From a virus, in the UHGV virus genome UHGV-0778869: a stretch of DNA of 23,187 nucleotides, one strand, 5' to 3'. Position 1 is the first letter of the stretch; each line of letters opens with the position of its first letter. A program made the position numbers and the translations under genes. The notes beneath the pieces are model-generated. The model had not been told where the DNA came from. It did not search any database and saw only the letters and a list, made by a program, of their open reading frames with translations. Shown here piece after piece: positions 1,815 to 9,594 of the stretch.

Positions 1815-2341
1815 GCCGCCATCCTGACGCCCTGCCCGATCGCCATCAATGCCGCTTTGGATACGGTAGTAAACATCCGTCGAGGACTGATGAACGGTCG
1901 CCAAATCAGCAGCATGGAGCCTTTGCTGTTTCCCTTCTTCTCCAGCCCTGTCGATGGTTCGATAAAATTAATCCGTCCATCAGTGATAATACGAACTTCG
2001 TCAACACTCTCCAGAGCCTTGCTGAACCATCCGACTGACATATCCTCTGGCACAAGCATCACTACCGTCTGTCGCTGTTGTATGCACTGCTCAGCGGCTT
2101 TTTCTACCCACGGCCTGATATTGCTGTACGGTGGGTTATTCCAGATTGCACCGTGGCTTACCCACTCAGAATTGAGCGCGTCGTCGGCCTCAGTTAGCCA
2201 GTGAGCGCACAGAGCATTTTTGTCGCTCGCAGCTGAGTCCAGCCAGAATCCAAACTCAATATCCAGTGCATCAAAAAGCCAAAGCGGCGTTTGCCAGCAG
2301 TCTCTAACTTCTTTTGGTGTTTCTGATTTATGCTTAATCAT
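1811..2341 (-). CDS. Phage Dam-family DNA N6-adenine methyltransferase (176 aa)
   Basis: N-terminal [18 protein letters not shown]...LDSAAS and catalytic NPPY ([10 protein letters not shown]) motifs; ATGA overlap with the upstream HNH gene. Confidence 0.8.
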
Positions 2342-2865
2342 TCAACCCTCGCATATTGTCCGTGATATTTGTTGATAGCCTCACTGGCAACCAAACCAGC
2401 AAGCTCAAGATCTTCATAGAACCCAAAATGCAACCGGCCAAAATCTGTGCGCACTTGAACGGCCCATTTATTTTTTTGCTTGTTCCATAAAACATTTTTT
2501 ATTCCAGAACGGCTATTGCACTTAGTTTTCTGATTTCGGCTGTTTGCTATCCGGCTTGCCTCCCTAAGATTTTTTGGGGAATTGTCCAGCCTGTTTCCGT
2601 TAATATGGTCAATATTTTTCAATGGCATTCTTTTGTTGTGCAGCGCAAAAACAACTACGTGAACAAACATCTGAATGCCTGCAAAACACACCTGTCTATA
2701 CCCAGATCCATTTATCGATGTTTTAATTTCATCTCCGGCCCGGTGGCTGTGGTTGGGGTGTTTTAGCGAGTCCTTTTTGTATCTGACTGTATCTCCGTCT
2801 AAATACAGATAATCCTCAATAAGCCGATACCTATCTGACGCTGGCGTATTTGATTTGATAGTCAT
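2338..2865 (-). CDS. HNH endonuclease with AP2-like DNA-binding domain (about 175 aa)
   Basis: HINGNRLDNSPKNLREASRIANSRN motif (HNH_3 type) followed by KNKWAVQVR...GRLHFGFYEDLELAG (AP2-like); start MTIKSN at 2865 overlaps the ninB stop (ATGA). Confidence 0.75.
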   Translation of the reverse strand: MTIKSNTPASDRYRLIEDYLYLDGDTVRYKKDSLKHPNHSHRAGDEIKTSINGSGYRQVCFAGIQMFVHVVVFALHNKRMPLKNIDHINGNRLDNSPKNLREASRIANSRNQKTKCNSRSGIKNVLWNKQKNKWAVQVRTDFGRLHFGFYEDLELAGLVASEAINKYHGQYARVE

Positions 2866-3302
2866 GCAGCCCGATCTCCCCATCGCGCTTTCCATTCGAG
2901 AGCCAGTCGCGCTTCGTCTGACCACTTAACGCCACGCTCTGTACCGAATGCCTGTATAAGCTCTAATAGCTCCGCAAATTCGCTTACACGCATCCTGCTG
3001 GTTGACTGGCCTATTACCACAAAGCCATTCCCGGCAAGGTTAGGAACAACGTCCTGCTGCTTTAATGCAGCTGTAAAAACGCACTTCCAGCTTTCTGCAT
3101 CCAGCCAGCGACCATGCCATTCAACCTGACGAGAGACGTCACCAAGGCAAGCCCAAAGCTTTCGATTCTGGTCTAAGCTGCGGTTGCGTTCCTGAATGGT
3201 TACTACGATTGGTTTGGTTGGGTCTGGAAGGATTTGCTGTACTGCGTGAATAGCATTTTGCTGAAGTGCTGGAGATCGAATTTCAAAGGTCAGTTTTTTC
3301 AT
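2862..3302 (-). CDS. ninB: NinB / Orf recombination mediator (146 aa)
   Basis: From internal ATG at 3302: MKKLTFEIRSPALQQNAIHAVQQILPDPTKPIVVTIQERNRSLDQNRKLWACLGDV..., near-identical to lambda NinB as recalled; SD GAGAGGGAAG upstream. Confidence 0.9.
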   Translation of the reverse strand: MKKLTFEIRSPALQQNAIHAVQQILPDPTKPIVVTIQERNRSLDQNRKLWACLGDVSRQVEWHGRWLDAESWKCVFTAALKQQDVVPNLAGNGFVVIGQSTSRMRVSEFAELLELIQAFGTERGVKWSDEARLALEWKARWGDRAA

Positions 3303-3316
3303 GACTTCCCTCTCCC

Positions 3317-3350
3317 CCAAATAAAAAGGCCTGCGATTACCAGCAGGCCT
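3317..3350 (-). terminator. Intrinsic terminator between helicase and ninB (tR2-like position)
   Basis: On minus strand: stem AGGCCTGC (3350-3343) / GCAGGCCT (3334-3327), 8-nt loop, then TTTTATTTGG. Confidence 0.7.
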
Positions 3351-5877: not shown

Positions 5878-6156
5878 TCAGGCCTCGAAGAATTCGCCGT
5901 TCTTCGGGGCTTTTTCTTTTGTCAGCATTCTGGCTACTTTCTTAGCCAGTTCCGCCAACTCCTCGTCTTCAACACCCCATTCAAGAACAGCAAGAAGCAT
6001 TCCCATTTTGGGGATGAAGCTGTCTTTCCATCGCGAAATTTGCGATTCATTAATCCCTAACGCGTCGGCAACCTTTCGCTGACCACGTACAGCAATTCGA
6101 TTCAGGATGTTGCTTGTAATTGCATTCGCTTTCTTGCGAGTACTTGTAAGTTGCAT
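5878..6156 (-). CDS. cII: CII-like transcriptional activator (P22 C1-like, 92 aa)
   Basis: SQISRWK and MLLAVLEWGV motifs shared with lambda CII; position between cro and O. Confidence 0.85.
   Translation of the reverse strand: MQLTSTRKKANAITSNILNRIAVRGQRKVADALGINESQISRWKDSFIPKMGMLLAVLEWGVEDEELAELAKKVARMLTKEKAPKNGEFFEA
6119..6132 (+). promoter_or_regulatory. Candidate pRE CII-binding site TTGC-N6-TTGC (TTGCTTGTAATTGC)
   Basis: Tandem TTGC tetrads 6 bp apart on the cI-sense strand inside the first codons of the cII-like gene, the lambda pRE arrangement. Confidence 0.6.
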
Positions 6157-6189
6157 ATGTAAGTATTTCCTTAACTAATAAGAAGTTAT

Positions 6190-6207
6190 GCGCATCAACT
6201 TATGCGC
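6190..6207 (-). terminator. Candidate tR1-like hairpin downstream of nutR
   Basis: Minus-strand RNA GCGCAU-AAGUUG-AUGCGC followed by AUAACUUCUUAUUAG; T-run imperfect. Confidence 0.35.
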
Positions 6208-6214
6208 GTTGTAT

Positions 6215-6258
6215 TCCCGCATTTCGGCGGGAATGAGGACCATGACTGTTAAAGAGCG
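6215..6258 (-). promoter_or_regulatory. nutR: boxA CGCTCTTTAACA plus boxB hairpin TCCCGC-CGAAAT-GCGGGA
   Basis: Read on minus strand between cro and cII-like; boxA resembles the E. coli rrn boxA; the identical boxA/boxB pair recurs as nutL. Confidence 0.7.
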
Positions 6259-6264
6259 GTGTTA

Positions 6265-6459
6265 CTATTTGTTTTTCTTGTTGCTTGGGAAAGGACGAAC
6301 TTCCTCTCCAATCACACTGCCATCAGGCTTTACCGTAACCATAATGTTACGGCCTGCCAGAATGGCCTTGCTGATAGCGCACTGGATTACACCAAAGTCA
6401 CTGGCTGCTTTAGCCTGTCCATGGATTTTGGCGTAATCGGCAAGTGTCATTCGAATCAT
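6265..6459 (-). CDS. cro: Cro repressor (lambda Cro fold, 64 aa)
   Basis: ATG 6459 with GGAGAG SD; product ...[41 protein letters not shown] parallels lambda Cro. Confidence 0.85.
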
Positions 6460-6488
6460 ATGCACTCTCCGTTATTAACCATGAACAA

Positions 6489-6559
6489 AGAATACTACAG
6501 GTATTCAAAGCAATCAATACTCAGGGTATTTTTAGTTTGAGTACCTTAGCTATTAGAAT
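6489..6559. promoter_or_regulatory. OR region: three 15-bp operators (6491-6505, 6516-6530, 6540-6554) overlapping divergent pR and pRM
   Basis: AATACTACAGGTATT, AATACTCAGGGTATT, AGTACCTTAGCTATT. pR on minus strand: -35 TTGATT (6517-6512), 17-bp spacer, -10 TATTCT (6494-6489). pRM -10 TAGAAT (6554-6559) would start transcription at the cI ATG. Confidence 0.65.
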
Positions 6560-6565
6560 TAAGCT

Positions 6566-7282
6566 ATGGAAAATAAAAAATCACTGACGACAGAACAGCT
6601 CGAAGACGCTAAGCGGCTTAAGGCTTTGTATGAGTCAAAAAAGAAAGAATTGGGAATAACCCAATACTCAATCGCTGATGAACTGGGTATCACCCAAGGA
6701 GCGGTAGGGCATTATCTTAATGGCAGAAACGCGCTAAACGTTGAGGTCGCATCTGGTTTTGCACGTTTGTTGCAAGTCTCAATTGCTGATTTTAGCCAGT
6801 CAATTGCTGCCAAGGTTGCAGAACAGGCAGAAAGCCTTAAGAGCGATGCCAACGTAAGGTATGCAGGGGAATACAGAGCAGGAAAGAGGTATCCGGTGTT
6901 AAGCAGTATCCAGGCTGGCTCGTGGTGTGAAGCATGCGAACCATACACCATTAAAGACATAGATGTTTGGCTTGAGTCTGACGCGCATATTCAAGGTAAT
7001 GCGTTCTGGCTTAAAGTGGAAGGTGATTCAATGACGGCACCGGTTGGGTTAAGCATTCCAGAGGGAACATTCGTTCTTTTCGATACCGGAAGGGAGGCGA
7101 TCAACGGCAGCTTGGTCATAGCAAAACTTTCTGACTCTAACGAAGCAACATTCAAGAAGCTGATAATCGACGGCGGAAATAAATACCTCAAGGGACTTAA
7201 TCCTGCATGGCCTCTCGTGCCAATCAATGGAAACTGCAAGATTATAGGCGTTGCAATTGAGACAAAACTAAGGCTGGTTTGA
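6566..7282 (+). CDS. cI: CI/C2-type prophage repressor (HTH plus S24 LexA-like autopeptidase, 238 aa)
   Basis: N-terminal HTH (ITQYSIADELGITQGAVGHYLNG); Ala-Gly cleavage site (SIQAGSW), catalytic GDSMTAP and FKKL; C-terminal half close to P22 C2 as recalled. Confidence 0.9.
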   Translation: MENKKSLTTEQLEDAKRLKALYESKKKELGITQYSIADELGITQGAVGHYLNGRNALNVEVASGFARLLQVSIADFSQSIAAKVAEQAESLKSDANVRYAGEYRAGKRYPVLSSIQAGSWCEACEPYTIKDIDVWLESDAHIQGNAFWLKVEGDSMTAPVGLSIPEGTFVLFDTGREAINGSLVIAKLSDSNEATFKKLIIDGGNKYLKGLNPAWPLVPINGNCKIIGVAIETKLRLV

Positions 7283-7299
7283 TCACGCAAGGGGCGATT

Positions 7300-7668
7300 A
7301 TGGTTGGAACCGCTATAGCAAGCTTTTTTGGGATGTTGGCAATCTCGACAATTTACGGCTTAGCGCATGCTTTTATTGCGAAATCTCTATCAGAAAAAAT
7401 AAGCCAGGCTTGGGCGCATAGATCAGCTCGTTTCATGATTCTGGTGATCATAGCAATACAAGGGATATCTGCATTTATCCTCTATGGATCAAGCTTATAC
7501 CTATTGTATCAAGGCGCGACATTTACGCCTTACACCAGTGATTACGGAACTCTATACGATGGTAGTGAAGACATCACTGTGGCTTGGATCGTCTTTGGTT
7601 TATCTATGGCCGTGTCTGTTGTAGCAGACATCATTAAGGTAATTATCGTCTTAACCTTCGCTGACTAA
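7300..7668 (+). CDS. Small polytopic membrane protein (about 122 aa) downstream of cI
   Basis: ATG 7300 with AAGGGG SD (alternative ATG 7279 overlaps the cI stop); three to four hydrophobic helices; same strand as cI. Confidence 0.6.
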   Translation: MVGTAIASFFGMLAISTIYGLAHAFIAKSLSEKISQAWAHRSARFMILVIIAIQGISAFILYGSSLYLLYQGATFTPYTSDYGTLYDGSEDITVAWIVFGLSMAVSVVADIIKVIIVLTFAD

Positions 7669-7754
7669 CCTATAATCCCGGCAGCAATAGCTATCGGGAT
7701 CCACTTCACATATCCCGCATAAAAAGCACTGAACAAGCAGACACCGAAAAAATA

Positions 7755-7841
7755 AATATCCTTTGTATTCATTTGCTTATCATTATTTCACCAAAAATAA
7801 ATACCTTGGGTATTTACACAATAAAATACCTACAGTATTCT
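7755..7841 (+). promoter_or_regulatory. OL region: three 15-bp operators (7755-7769, 7800-7814, 7825-7839) overlapping pL
   Basis: AATATCCTTTGTATT, AATACCTTGGGTATT, AATACCTACAGTATT. pL: -35 TTTACA (7813-7818), 17-bp spacer, -10 TATTCT (7836-7841). Confidence 0.6.
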
Positions 7842-7887
7842 TTAGCCATCAGCAGGACGCTGGAAGCCAAACGGAACAGATTGGCAG

Positions 7888-7928
7888 GCTCTTTAACATT
7901 GATGGGATTGTCCCGCCGAAATGCGGGA
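7888..7928 (+). promoter_or_regulatory. nutL: boxA GCTCTTTAACA (7888-7898) plus boxB hairpin TCCCGC-CGAAAT-GCGGGA (7911-7928)
   Basis: Same boxA/boxB as nutR, downstream of pL and upstream of the N-like gene. Confidence 0.7.
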
Positions 7929-8241
7929 ACCAAAGAGTAGTTGGCTTTGGGGTGACGTGAAGTGCAGCTGCACGACGGCAACCGGAAGATAAGCACCCGG
8001 CGCGCCACCGCCAAAGTCAATTCCATAGGCGTTATGCAGCCGCCACCATATTCAAGAAAGCTGCACAAGAGGTAGGAGGATTTATGTGAATACTTACATT
8101 CAATTGAGAGATTAATTAAATAGAACTGATCGAGCAGAGTCCATAAAGGCTCATAAATGCTCTTCCATCCCCGTCTAATTGGCGGGGAAGGAAACAACTT
8201 TGTAATAAAAAAATTCCAAAGTTGTTTCATCGGAGGTCAAC

Positions 8242-8514
8242 ATGACAGTAGTCATTACATATCTGGCTGACGATAACGCCAGAAATCGCCGCAGAGCACG
8301 CAGACAGGCTCAACGTGAACAGGCAATGCAAGAGCAGCGACTGGCGCGAAAAATTGCGCTAAAGCTCTCTGGTTGCGTCAGAGCAGATAAAGCAGCATCA
8401 CTCGGAAGCCTTCGCTGCAAGAAGGCAGATGAATGCAGTGGAAGTATTTGCCTGCCAAACGTAGCCATTTACTCGGCAGGCTACCGGAAATCAAAACAAC
8501 TGACAGCCAGGTAA
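8242..8514 (+). CDS. N-like transcription antiterminator with arginine-rich motif (P22 gp24-like, 90 aa)
   Basis: GGAGG SD; ARM NARNRRRARRQAQREQA near the N-terminus; C-terminal ...YSAGYRKSKQLTAR resembles P22 gp24 as recalled. Confidence 0.8.
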   Translation: MTVVITYLADDNARNRRRARRQAQREQAMQEQRLARKIALKLSGCVRADKAASLGSLRCKKADECSGSICLPNVAIYSAGYRKSKQLTAR

Positions 8515-8517
8515 GTG

Positions 8518-8742
8518 ATGAATCAGACATACATTCCATCATGCTTGAGAAATCTGCCAAAGCAGAAAGCAAAGCCCCGCAAGCAAGCCATAAAGGACGC
8601 TAAGGCAGAGGTTATTGATCAAGCAATACAATTGCTCAGGGAGGAGTTAAGAAGTGGCAAGCTCGAAGGAATGATGATGCCCTATCAGCGCGGATATCTT
8701 TCGGCGATTAGTAAGCTGGAAGTATTGAAGAGTGAATTATGA
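8518..8742 (+). CDS. Hypothetical protein (74 aa)
   Basis: ATG 8518 after AGGTAAG; MNQTYIPSCLRNLPKQKAKPRKQ...; ATGA overlap with the next gene. No family recognised. Confidence 0.5.
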   Translation: MNQTYIPSCLRNLPKQKAKPRKQAIKDAKAEVIDQAIQLLREELRSGKLEGMMMPYQRGYLSAISKLEVLKSEL

Positions 8743-9431
8743 ACTATCTGGAATTTCCGGATGGTTCATTGTTTTGGCAGCAAACCACTTATTTGAGAGG
8801 AATTAATATGTCATCAATCCGCTTAACTACGAGAATGAAAGAGAAAATCGCTCGTAACGCTTTAATTAAGTCTGGGGTTTTCACTGAGCTTGAAGAAGTA
8901 ACAAAGTTAAAGAGCCAGCTTGCACTTGACGCCAGAGTTATTGCGTTTGGCGGTAAAAAGAAAACTGAGGAAGTGGATCAGTTATCATCCAAGTTAGTAG
9001 CTATAAGTGAAGAACTTGAAAAACTGGGATGTTCATTTTACTCATACGATGTTCGTTCTACTTCAATTTATCTGACTGTATCTGGCAGAAGGGTTGGATG
9101 GCTTTCATATGGGGAAGACGGCAACGGCGAAGATATATTGCTCCCTACTCCGACCAAAGATAAATGCATGTTTGACGCAGAACACGAAATAACAAAAAGG
9201 TTTGATGAAATCTGCGCATTGCAACAAAAACTTGAAGCCAAGAAAAAGGATATCGAATCAAATGTATGGGCTGCTTTGAACTCAGTCACAACAGTTAAGC
9301 GACTTATTGAAGTTTGGTCTGAAAGCAAAGAATTGCTACCAAAAGAAGCAGATAAAGCAAGTACAGCACTTCCTGCTTTACGGGTAGAAGATTTGAATAA
9401 GATGATTGGACTTCCTTCCGAGGCCGCATAG
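8739..9431 (+). CDS. Hypothetical protein (230 aa; alternative start 8808)
   Basis: ORF with coupled start; internal ATG 8808 has a GAGAGG SD; stop lies inside the terminator hairpin. No family recognised. Confidence 0.55.
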   Translation: MNYLEFPDGSLFWQQTTYLRGINMSSIRLTTRMKEKIARNALIKSGVFTELEEVTKLKSQLALDARVIAFGGKKKTEEVDQLSSKLVAISEELEKLGCSFYSYDVRSTSIYLTVSGRRVGWLSYGEDGNGEDILLPTPTKDKCMFDAEHEITKRFDEICALQQKLEAKKKDIESNVWAALNSVTTVKRLIEVWSESKELLPKEADKASTALPALRVEDLNKMIGLPSEAA

Positions 9432-9448
9432 TCGGCCTTTATTTTTGG
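9421..9448 (+). terminator. Intrinsic terminator
   Basis: Stem AGGCCG (9421-9426) / CGGCCT (9433-9438), loop CATAGT, then TTATTTTTGG. Confidence 0.7.
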
Positions 9449-9565
9449 CACTAACAACAGAATAAACACAGCACTGTGTATTCATTCCAACGAGTGAATA
9501 CACGGAGCAATGTCGCTCGTAACTAAACAGGAGCCGACTTGTTCTGATTATTGGAAATCTTCTTT

Positions 9566-9594
9566 GCCCTCCAGTGTGAGGGCAATTTTTTTTG
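9566..9594 (+). terminator. Intrinsic terminator immediately upstream of the next gene's RBS
   Basis: Stem GCCCTC / GAGGGC with loop CAGTGT, then AATTTTTTTTG; GGAGG SD follows at 9597. Confidence 0.7.

What the first reader, a model, noticed from the sequence alone, without database searches (positions are those of the whole stretch)
6215..7928. Matched nutR and nutL sites with identical boxB, consistent with the N-like ARM protein
boxA (C)GCTCTTTAACA followed by boxB TCCCGC-CGAAAT-GCGGGA occurs once on the minus strand after cro (6215-6258) and once on the plus strand after pL (7888-7928). The boxA is close to the E. coli rrn boxA and boxB has a 6-nt rather than GNRA-like 5-nt loop. This pairs a P22 gp24-like ARM protein with its probable RNA target.
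Basis: partly seen in the sequence, partly recalled or inferred. Interest (0 to 1): 0.4.

Follow-up and report, generated by a model that had tools for sequence, protein, structure and literature searches.

The report
Known HK620-type nutL/nutR antitermination sites
These two short matched sequences are the start signals that let a temperate phage's N protein push transcription past terminators; they are real, but identical copies were already annotated in coliphage HK620 in 2001, so the finding is correct and ordinary.

Summary
boxA GCTCTTTAACA, a 12-14 nt spacer and boxB TCCCGC-CGAAAT-GCGGGA occur exactly twice: at 6215-6257 (-), 7 nt after the cro stop codon, and at 7888-7928 (+), about 41 nt after the predicted pL start. 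None of 100 shuffles gave a match. The region is the HK620/HK140/mEpX2 immunity region. GenBank AF335538 (HK620) already annotates identical sequences at the homologous positions as putative nutL and nutR.

The gene after nutL (8242-8514) is an N protein (Pfam PF25694). [quoted passage not shown] This holds while the rest of N is mosaic and while at least 9 unrelated immunity cassettes lie between the two sites. No locus with another boxB class carries this motif.

One refinement: natural variants of the loop (CGAAAU, CGAGAU, AGAGAU, AGAAAU, AGUAAU) all fit [C/A]-GNRA-U. The "6-nt loop" is therefore most likely a true GNRA tetraloop closed by a C•U or A-U pair. This parallels the phi21 hexaloop, the P22 nutR loop and the VT2-Sakai GAAA boxB.

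I found no experimental study of this N-boxB pair in the held literature. Interest is low.

The parts
7888..7898 (+). nutL boxA, GCTCTTTAACA (rrn-type consensus; presumed NusB/NusE site on the RNA)
   Evidence: lies inside the HK620 'nutL' feature (HK620 locus coordinate + 4333 = window coordinate)
7899..7910 (+). nutL spacer TTGATGGGATTG (contains AUU)
   Evidence: the spacer is conserved across the class
7911..7928 (+). nutL boxB hairpin UCCCGC-C[GAAA]U-GCGGGA
6247..6258 (-). nutR boxA, CGCTCTTTAACA, starting 7 nt after the cro stop codon
   Evidence: lies inside the HK620 'nutR' feature
6233..6246 (-). nutR spacer GTCATGGTCCTCAT
6213..6234 (-). nutR boxB hairpin; the core at 6215-6232 is identical to nutL, and here the stem is extended to 8 bp (AUUCCCGC...GCGGGAAU)
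   Evidence: (z = -4.0)
8242..8514 (+). N antitermination protein gene (90 aa)
   Evidence: Pfam PF25694 N_peptide 1.6e-15; PHROG 271 5.8e-34; 97-99% identical to the N proteins of HK620, HK140 and JEP4
8269..8331 (+). Codons for the arginine-rich motif, residues 10-30 (DDNARNRRRARRQAQREQAMQ); inferred boxB-binding helix
7813..7841 (+). pL-like promoter (TTTACA-17-TATTCT); transcript start predicted near 7848 by alignment with the lambda pL leader
6482..6517 (-). pR, transferred from the HK620 annotation; the simple promoter scan did not detect it
6265..6465 (-). cro (HK620 annotates the start equivalent to 6459)
6566..7282 (+). cI repressor (HTH_3 + Peptidase_S24)
5878..6156 (-). cII, the first gene after nutR
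   Evidence: Phage_CII 1.8e-42
6190..6207 (-). Hairpin GCGCAU-AAGUUG-AUGCGC between nutR and cII, in the region HK620 calls tR1. It has no clean U-tract. A Rho-dependent terminator is inferred by analogy with lambda only.
7930..7961 (+). Second hairpin after boxB (CCAAAG...CUUUGG) followed by GGGGUGACGUG. It aligns with lambda ...GGCUUUGGGGUGUGUG, the boxC region.
3327..3350 (-). Strong intrinsic-terminator-like site between the helicase gene (P) and ninB, downstream of nutR; candidate target of N read-through (tR2 position)
9420..9585 (+). Two intrinsic-terminator-like sites (9420-9439 and 9564-9585) in the leftward operon downstream of nutL and N; candidate tL terminators

Best explanation
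These are the nutL and nutR sites of a P22-like (HK620-type) temperate phage. As RNA polymerase leaves pL and pR it transcribes boxA and then boxB. The N-terminal arginine-rich helix of the phage N protein (8242-8514) binds the boxB hairpin. Host NusB/NusE bind the rrn-type boxA, and NusA binds the spacer and the middle of N. The tethered complex makes the polymerase resistant to terminators downstream, such as 3327-3350 on the rightward side and 9420-9585 on the leftward side. boxB is recognised as a canonical GNRA tetraloop (GAAA) closed by a non-canonical C•U pair on a CCGC/GCGG stem. Shown here: sequence, position, fold, gene identity, and co-variation of the ARM with boxB. Inferred from the lambda/P22/phi21/H-19B paradigm: binding, the Nus factor roles, read-through, and the 3D shape of the loop.
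For: There are exactly two copies in the correct orientation and position. They are identical to the annotated nutL and nutR of HK620. N belongs to PF25694 and PHROG 271. Of 145 nut-plus-gene pairs scored, 118 with this boxB class carry the ARM N[AS][RK]NRR[RK]. Six more did not match the regular expression: four carry the same motif with single substitutions, one is a truncated ORF call, and one is a nutR site followed by cII. None of 21 loci with other boxB classes carries the motif. The ARM is constant while the middle and C-terminus of N swap between phi21-like, P22-like and 933W-like modules. The same boxB pair flanks at least 9 unrelated immunity cassettes in 103 loci. Mosaic junctions fall exactly at boxA. 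Stem pairs are maintained through U-A/C-G/U•G changes. Loop variants in Escherichia, Pantoea, Serratia and Chimaeribacter prophages and in IMG/VR contigs are all [C/A]-GNRA-U: GAAA, GAGA and GUAA, with the closing C•U replaced by A-U. The genome scan that found several of them left the loop unconstrained. boxA matches the rrn boxA at 11 of 11 positions. Terminator-like sites exist downstream in both operons.
Against: There is no experimental evidence for this N-boxB pair; I found none in the held literature. nutL and the 5' end of N are physically adjacent, so part of their co-inheritance is simple linkage. The loci are related and were collected by sequence searches, so the counts are not independent events. 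Covariation in the stem is modest, and the inner 4 bp never vary. The GNRA fold of the loop is inferred from sequence variation and from analogy with phi21 and P22, not from a structure.
Confidence: 0.9

Rival explanations
1. The sites are nut sites, but boxB is read as a true hexaloop with its own fold (for example a phi21-like U-turn or another geometry), not as a GNRA tetraloop closed by C•U.
For: ViennaRNA draws a 6-nt loop. C•U is not a standard pair. The phi21 boxB shows that hexaloops with non-GNRA sequence exist in this system.
Against: Every natural variant keeps G-N-R-A at loop positions 2-5. The flanking C changes to A, which gives a Watson-Crick A-U closing pair (L154, Serratia, Chimaeribacter). 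Even the phi21 hexaloop is a tetraloop-like fold flanked by a C•C pair (PMC12550061). The ARM shares A-x-x-R-R-x-x-R-R with lambda, P22 and VT2-Sakai, whose loops are GNRA-like.
Confidence: 0.2
2. Antitermination here is driven mainly by the rrn-type consensus boxA with host Nus factors alone. The hairpin is incidental, or is a processing or stability element.
For: boxA is the full rrn consensus. rrn antitermination needs no boxB or N (PMC2724277).
Against: An 18-nt hairpin is kept identical at both sites across at least 9 immunity types. It co-varies perfectly with the N ARM class, while boxA is shared by all classes. An N gene sits immediately downstream of nutL.
Confidence: 0.04
3. The two hairpins are terminators, or they are DNA-level palindromes bound by a protein (operator-like), and are unrelated to N.
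For: They are GC-rich inverted repeats that flank the immunity region symmetrically, as the operators do.
Against: No U-tract follows either hairpin, and the terminator scan did not call them. The operators are a separate, different repeat (I1). Each copy is oriented with the transcript and sits at a fixed distance from a boxA.
Confidence: 0.02

Closest known systems
Coliphage HK620 nutL / nutR (GenBank AF335538, features 'putative N-utilization leftward/rightward'); also the boxA features of mEpX2 and HK140
   Same: The sequence from boxA through boxB is identical at both sites. The flanking genes are the same (cro-nutR-cII; cI-hkaS-pL-nutL-N), and N is 97% identical.
   Different: The window carries a 206-nt insertion (8022-8227) in the leader between nutL and N that HK620 and mEpX2 lack; HK140 appears to share it (one aligned piece over the region). 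N differs at three residues.
Phage P22 nutR boxB (ACCGC-C-GACAA-C-GCGGU) and gp24
   Same: The stem is CCGC/GCGG. A GNRA-type loop is flanked by a pyrimidine-pyrimidine mismatch (C•C in P22, C•U here). boxA is of the consensus type. The N C-terminus LP.VA.Y.AG.RKSKQ.TAR is shared, and the ARM shares N-A-[KR]-x-R-R-x-x-R-R.
   Different: The P22 loop is the pentaloop GACAA with an extruded C (PDB 1A4T, as described in PMC12550061). Here the loop is GAAA with no extra base. The second half of the ARM is unrelated.
Phage phi21 boxB hexaloop CUAACC with the N ARM GTAKSRYKARRAELIAERR (PDB 1NYB)
   Same: The loop is 6 nt, read as a tetraloop-like fold flanked by a non-canonical pair. boxA and the pL leader are identical, and the middle segment of N (ARKIALKLSGCVRADKAASLGSLRCKK) is shared.
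   Different: The loop core is UAAC (UMAC) rather than GNRA. The ARM has Y in place of the second R. Phages with NRYRARR ARMs carry CUAGCA loops, not this boxB.
H-19B / 933W / VT2-Sakai type nut sites (boxB GGCU-GAAA-AGCC and CGCU-GAAA-AGCG)
   Same: The loop is a GAAA tetraloop. The ARM core RRRARR is identical in VT2-Sakai N, and the N C-terminus is the same. N of H-19B has been shown experimentally to act at its nutR (PMC3526286).
   Different: The closing pair is Watson-Crick U-A on a short 4-bp stem, the spacer is much longer with an extra hairpin, and the stem sequence is different.
Phage lambda nutL / nutR
   Same: The architecture is the same: pL/pR - boxA - spacer - boxB - (boxC), with N immediately after nutL. 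The ARM shares A-x-x-RRR-x-RR.
   Different: Lambda boxA is the weaker CGCUCUUA. Its boxB is a GAAAA/GAAGA pentaloop. Lambda N has W18, which has no counterpart here, and is only 23% identical overall.

Membership tests
Lambdoid N-utilisation (nut) site | One copy early in each of the two divergent early transcripts, on the transcribed strand: after cro on the pR side, and between pL and N on the pL side | tested here: met
Lambdoid N-utilisation (nut) site | boxA matching the CGCUCUU(U)A / rrn UGCUCUUUA consensus | tested here: met
   GCUCUUUAACA at both sites; this is 11 of 11 positions of the rrn boxA-spacer (PMC2724277)
Lambdoid N-utilisation (nut) site | boxB stem-loop about 8-15 nt 3' of boxA, the same or nearly the same in nutL and nutR | tested here: met
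   The 18-nt hairpin is identical at both sites, with spacers of 12 and 14 nt
Lambdoid N-utilisation (nut) site | Cognate N protein with an N-terminal arginine-rich motif encoded downstream of nutL | tested here: met
Lambdoid N-utilisation (nut) site | The N ARM class and the boxB class change together across phages | tested here: met
   118 of 118 ARM-positive loci carry this boxB class, and 0 of 21 loci with other boxB classes carry the ARM. The pairing also holds in four Enterobacterales genera and across at least 9 immunity cassettes. Caveats: physical linkage and non-independent samples.
Lambdoid N-utilisation (nut) site | N- and Nus-dependent read-through of downstream terminators; direct ARM-boxB binding | not testable with these tools
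   Only candidate terminators could be located
Lambda/P22-type boxB (GNRA-like pentaloop with one extruded base) | Five-nucleotide loop G-N-(x)-R-A closed by a base pair | tested here: not met
   The loop is C-GAAA-U with no fifth nucleotide inside the GNRA
phi21-type boxB (hexaloop C-UAAC-C) | Six-nucleotide loop: a tetraloop-like core flanked by a non-canonical pyrimidine pair | tested here: inconclusive
   The loop length and the pyrimidine-pyrimidine flank are met. The core is GNRA rather than UMAC, and the ARM lacks the Tyr. The fold itself cannot be tested here.
Pfam PF25694 (N_peptide; P22 gp24 / phi21 N family) | Score above the curated gathering threshold | tested here: met
   57.8 bits against a cut-off of 27.9, covering residues 11-90
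Rfam RNA families | Match at the gathering score to any curated family | tested here: not met
   0 matches in the whole window

The most novel reading that the evidence does not exclude
The HK620-type N ARM ([DE]NA[RK][NS]RR[RK]A[RK]RA) and its boxB form a distinct specificity class that has not been characterised biochemically. It is spread across Enterobacterales prophages. In it the peptide reads a genuine GNRA tetraloop with no extruded base, closed by a C•U or A-U pair. A single Arg-to-Tyr change in the ARM (NRRRARR to NRYRARR) accompanies a switch to a phi21-like CUAGCA loop. If the pair is orthogonal to lambda, P22 and phi21, it would be another peptide-RNA tethering pair, and a natural test of how much the extruded loop base matters for assembly of the NusA-dependent complex.
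Probability: 0.5. Interest if true: 0.3.

Novelty: already known. Interest (0 to 1): 0.15.

Why it matters
For genome annotation it matters little: this is the standard N/nut module of a lambdoid phage, already annotated in HK620. The modest value lies in the comparative result. One ARM class tracks one boxB class ([C/A]-GNRA-U on a CCGC stem) through many mosaic N proteins, at least 9 immunity types and several genera. That defines an untested N-boxB specificity pair and suggests simple specificity rules, including R to Y paired with GNRA to CUAGCA. Such pairs could serve peptide-RNA tethering tools or studies of ARM recognition.

Tried and rejected
- An Rfam scan of the whole window found no family.
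- A PDB sequence search with N found only spurious low-complexity hits (RNF168, E = 0.34). The N-peptide entries were not retrieved.
- Literature searches for HK620 with boxB/nutL, for lambdoid ARM classes, and for HK620 with antitermination found no experimental work on this pair. Cilley & Williamson 2003 (PMC1370434) is not held.
- The third boxA-like match at 8905-8915 (-) has no hairpin after it and was rejected as chance.
- The genome-contig scan with an unconstrained loop returned mostly unrelated hits, from many phyla and with no nut-like spacer. Only the 7 loci with the nutL/nutR spacer were informative.
- The simple sigma-70 scan did not find pR, so its position is taken from the HK620 annotation.
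- The 138-aa ORF at 7814-8230 on the minus strand, opposite nutL, was not treated as a gene. The HK620 and HK140 records annotate no minus-strand gene there.
- A long duplication as the source of the match was rejected, because identity is confined to boxA and boxB and the spacers differ.
Full report
**1. Observation**

The composite pattern boxA-N(8-20)-boxB (GCTCTTTAACA ... TCCCGCCGAAATGCGGGA) occurs exactly twice in the 23,187-nt window. One copy is at 6215-6257 on the minus strand and the other at 7888-7928 on the plus strand. None of 100 dinucleotide-preserving shuffles gave a match. boxB has no third copy even with three mismatches allowed.

A third boxA-like match with one mismatch lies at 8905-8915 (-). 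No hairpin follows it, and about 0.5 such matches are expected by chance.

The two sites share only boxA, a few spacer positions (A-n-T-n-ATGG) and boxB plus one following A. The spacers are 12 and 14 nt and otherwise differ. The match is therefore two conserved blocks, not a leftover of a long duplication.

As RNA, both boxB sequences fold into the hairpin described. The stem is 6 bp at nutL and 8 bp at nutR (AUUCCCGC/GCGGGAAU), each with a 6-nt loop. The isolated nutR hairpin is at z = -4.0 against shuffles and the nutL hairpin at z = -2.0.

**2. Context**

The genes around the sites are those of a lambdoid immunity region:
- cII at 5878-6156 (-) (Phage_CII, 1.8e-42)
- cro at 6265-6465 (-) (Cro, 3.6e-26)
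- cI at 6566-7282 (+) (HTH_3 + Peptidase_S24)
- a small gene of unknown function at 7279-7668 (+)
- a 90-aa N protein at 8242-8514 (+) (PF25694 N_peptide, 57.8 bits against a cut-off of 27.9; PHROG 271, 5.8e-34)

nutR starts 7 nt after the cro stop codon. nutL lies after a pL-like promoter at 7813-7841. By alignment with the lambda pL leader, nutL begins about 41 nt into the transcript. Both copies are on the transcribed strand.

The wider window is a P22-like (Lederbergvirus-type) phage genome. It carries a DnaB-type helicase, NinB, NinG, Dam, a lambda-type integrase, a tailspike with the P22 head-binding domain, Mnt/Arc, and an injection protein.

Terminator-like sites that N would have to override lie downstream of both nut sites. 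One is at 3327-3350 (-) between the helicase gene and ninB. Two more are at 9420-9439 and 9564-9585 (+).

**3. Already annotated**

Megablast places the region in the HK620/HK140/mEpX2 immunity group at 95-99.5% identity. The HK620 record (AF335538) annotates 'nutL; putative N-utilization leftward' and 'nutR; putative N-utilization rightward'. Shifted by 4333 nt, these fall at window 7887-7928 and 6213-6258. The aligned sequences are identical through boxA, spacer and boxB.

The mEpX2 and HK140 records annotate the same boxA elements. Pairing these sites with this N is therefore existing annotation rather than a discovery. I found no experimental paper on this particular N-boxB pair in the held library.

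**4. Does this N go with this boxB?**

In 103 loci that hold both copies, the DNA between them falls into at least 9 clusters. These clusters share only 34-197 nt with the window's immunity region. The same boxB pair has therefore been kept on both sides of unrelated cI/cro cassettes.

Downstream of nutL, the N-terminal 30 residues of the N ORF (TYLADDNARNRRRARRQAQREQAMQ) are almost invariant. The rest of the protein switches between several modules:
- a phi21-like middle (ARKIALKLSGCVRADKAASLGSLRCKK)
- a P22-like middle (DASLARRVANSTCSTRV...)
- C-termini of the 933W/P22 type (CLPNVAIYAAGYRKSKQLTAR)
- C-termini of the phi21/lambda type (...GRQKMKLGSKPLI)

Scans with boxA plus spacer, which leave boxB free, brought in other boxB classes in the same context. 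A contingency count gave these results:
- 118 loci have this boxB class and the ARM N[AS][RK]NRR[RK].
- 6 further pairs did not match the regular expression. Four carry the same motif with single substitutions, one is a truncated ORF call, and one is a nutR site followed by cII.
- 0 of 21 loci with other boxB classes have this ARM.

The other classes pair as expected:
- CUAACC loops go with GTAKSRYKARRAELIAERR (phi21 type).
- CUAGCA loops go with NRYRARR ARMs.
- UCUCCCGCCCUUGUGGGAGA goes with SVSRRYLKRGELIAKRR.
- GGGGAUGAUUCGUCCCC goes with KAREIRKLERARKHK.

There are caveats. nutL and the 5' end of N are adjacent, so part of this association is linkage. The samples are related and were drawn by sequence search. 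The retention of nutR across swapped immunity regions is the part that linkage does not explain.

**5. What the 'six-nucleotide loop' is**

Reference sites taken from database records:

| Phage | boxB |
|---|---|
| lambda | GCCCU-GAA(A/G)A-AGGGC |
| P22 nutL | GCGCU-GACAA-AGCGC |
| P22 nutR | CCGC-C-GACAA-C-GCGG (C•C flank) |
| phi21-type | UCUCAAC-CUAACC-GUUGAGA |
| VT2-Sakai | GGCU-GAAA-AGCC and CGCU-GAAA-AGCG |

Within the window's class, the natural variants of the loop are:
- CGAAAU (most loci)
- CGAGAU (L148)
- AGAGAU (L154)
- AGAAAU (Serratia fonticola)
- AGUAAU (two Chimaeribacter species)

A related nutR has CGCAAU. The genome scan that found the Serratia, Chimaeribacter and Pantoea sites left all six loop positions free. 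Each of these prophages encodes the same ARM class.

All variants fit [C/A]-G-N-R-A-U. When the first position is A, it can pair with the final U. The simplest reading is a canonical GNRA tetraloop closed by a C•U or A-U pair.

This reading has precedent. The phi21 CUAACC hexaloop is described as a tetraloop-like UAAC fold flanked by a C•C pair (PDB 1NYB). The P22 pentaloop is a GNRA fold with one base looped out (PMC12550061).

The ARM aligns with those of lambda, P22 and VT2-Sakai at A13, R16, R17, R20 and R21. It lacks lambda's Trp and P22's His.

Stem pairs are maintained. The outermost pair is U-A in 6, C-G in 4 and U•G in 3 of 13 distinct hairpins. Three other pairs vary only to G•U. The inner CCGC/GCGG pairs barely vary, so covariation support is real but modest.

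**6. boxA and flanks**

GCUCUUUAACA matches the E. coli rrn boxA-spacer (ugcucuuuaacaauuua) at 11 of 11 positions. This is the 'consensus' form, unlike lambda's CGCUCUUA (PMC2724277).

The pL leader from the transcript start to boxA is conserved between the window, lambda, P22, a phi21-type phage and VT2-Sakai. Similarity breaks right after boxA and resumes after boxB, in a second hairpin and a GGCUUUGGGGUG... segment that aligns with lambda's boxC region. Mosaic junctions at boxA are also visible among the IMG/VR loci.

**7. Mechanism and rivals**

The best-supported explanation is the standard one. N binds boxB RNA through its ARM, and the Nus factors bind boxA and the spacer. The complex then rides with RNA polymerase through the tR1 region, the terminator at 3327-3350 and the leftward terminators. 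Binding, Nus dependence and read-through are inferred from lambda, P22, phi21 and H-19B (for example PMC3526286) and were not tested here.

I considered three rivals:
- A non-GNRA hexaloop fold. This is possible but disfavoured by the variation pattern.
- rrn-like antitermination through boxA alone. This is disfavoured by the strict ARM-boxB coupling.
- Terminators or DNA palindromes. No U-tract follows the hairpins, and the operators are a separate repeat.

**8. Verdict**

The added value is a cleaner description of the boxB class ([C/A]-GNRA-U on a CCGC stem) and of its dedicated ARM. Interest is low.

Noticed in passing
window 8022-8227: The leader between nutL and the N ribosome-binding site carries a 206-nt insertion relative to HK620 and mEpX2. 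It contains a strong SD followed by a start-stop mini-ORF (AGGAGG-ATTT-ATG-TGA, 8074-8089). It also has a 16-bp hairpin (8191-8206 / 8213-8228) ending just before the N Shine-Dalgarno. In related loci this leader ranges from 107 to about 560 nt. The whole 413-nt leader folds much better than shuffles (z = -5.2).
   Followed up: partly
L134 (and one further IMG/VR locus), between nutL and N: Some relatives carry an HNH-type endonuclease ORF (…HIDHINGCR.DNR..NLREV…) inserted between nutL and the N gene. The nutL-N leader therefore looks like a hotspot for insertions.
   Followed up: no
L150, L159: N proteins whose ARM differs from the window's mainly by Arg to Tyr (NRYRARR) sit after a different boxB, UUCCUCU-CUAGCA-GGAGGAA. 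Its loop resembles the phi21 CUAACC loop. This suggests a simple specificity switch.
   Followed up: partly
L127, L130, L134, L138, L142: In a further N class (ARM MNAKQRCKLRRLERR) the nutL and nutR boxB sequences are not identical: GUAUGCC-GAGA-GGUGUAC against CCCUGC-C-GCAA-U-G(U/C)GGGG. Both contain a GNRA tetraloop.
   Followed up: partly
window 7848-7898 and 7930-7961; L123-L126: The pL leader from the transcript start to boxA is conserved among the window, lambda, P22, a phi21-type phage and VT2-Sakai. So are a second hairpin and a GGGGUG segment after boxB. Only the spacer and boxB segment is swapped between classes.
   Followed up: partly
window 6157-6174 and 8082-8099: An 18-nt inverted repeat (83% complementary) links the cII ribosome-binding and start region to the start-stop mini-ORF inside the leader insertion (…AATACTTACAT…). 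It may be chance or a trace of the insertion's origin.
   Followed up: no
window 2338-2925 (-): An ORF with an HNH_3 endonuclease domain lies between ninB and the Dam methyltransferase gene in the nin region. It is possibly a mobile homing-endonuclease insertion.
   Followed up: no
window 8739-9431 (+): The second gene after N encodes an Nmad5 (nucleotide modification associated domain 5) protein (9.4e-69). A terminator-like hairpin follows it immediately at 9420-9439.
   Followed up: no
L222 and L227 (genome contigs): Contigs binned as 'Bacillales' and 'Segatella copri' MAGs carry this Enterobacterales phage nut/N module at or near identity. They are probably mis-binned phage contigs.
   Followed up: no
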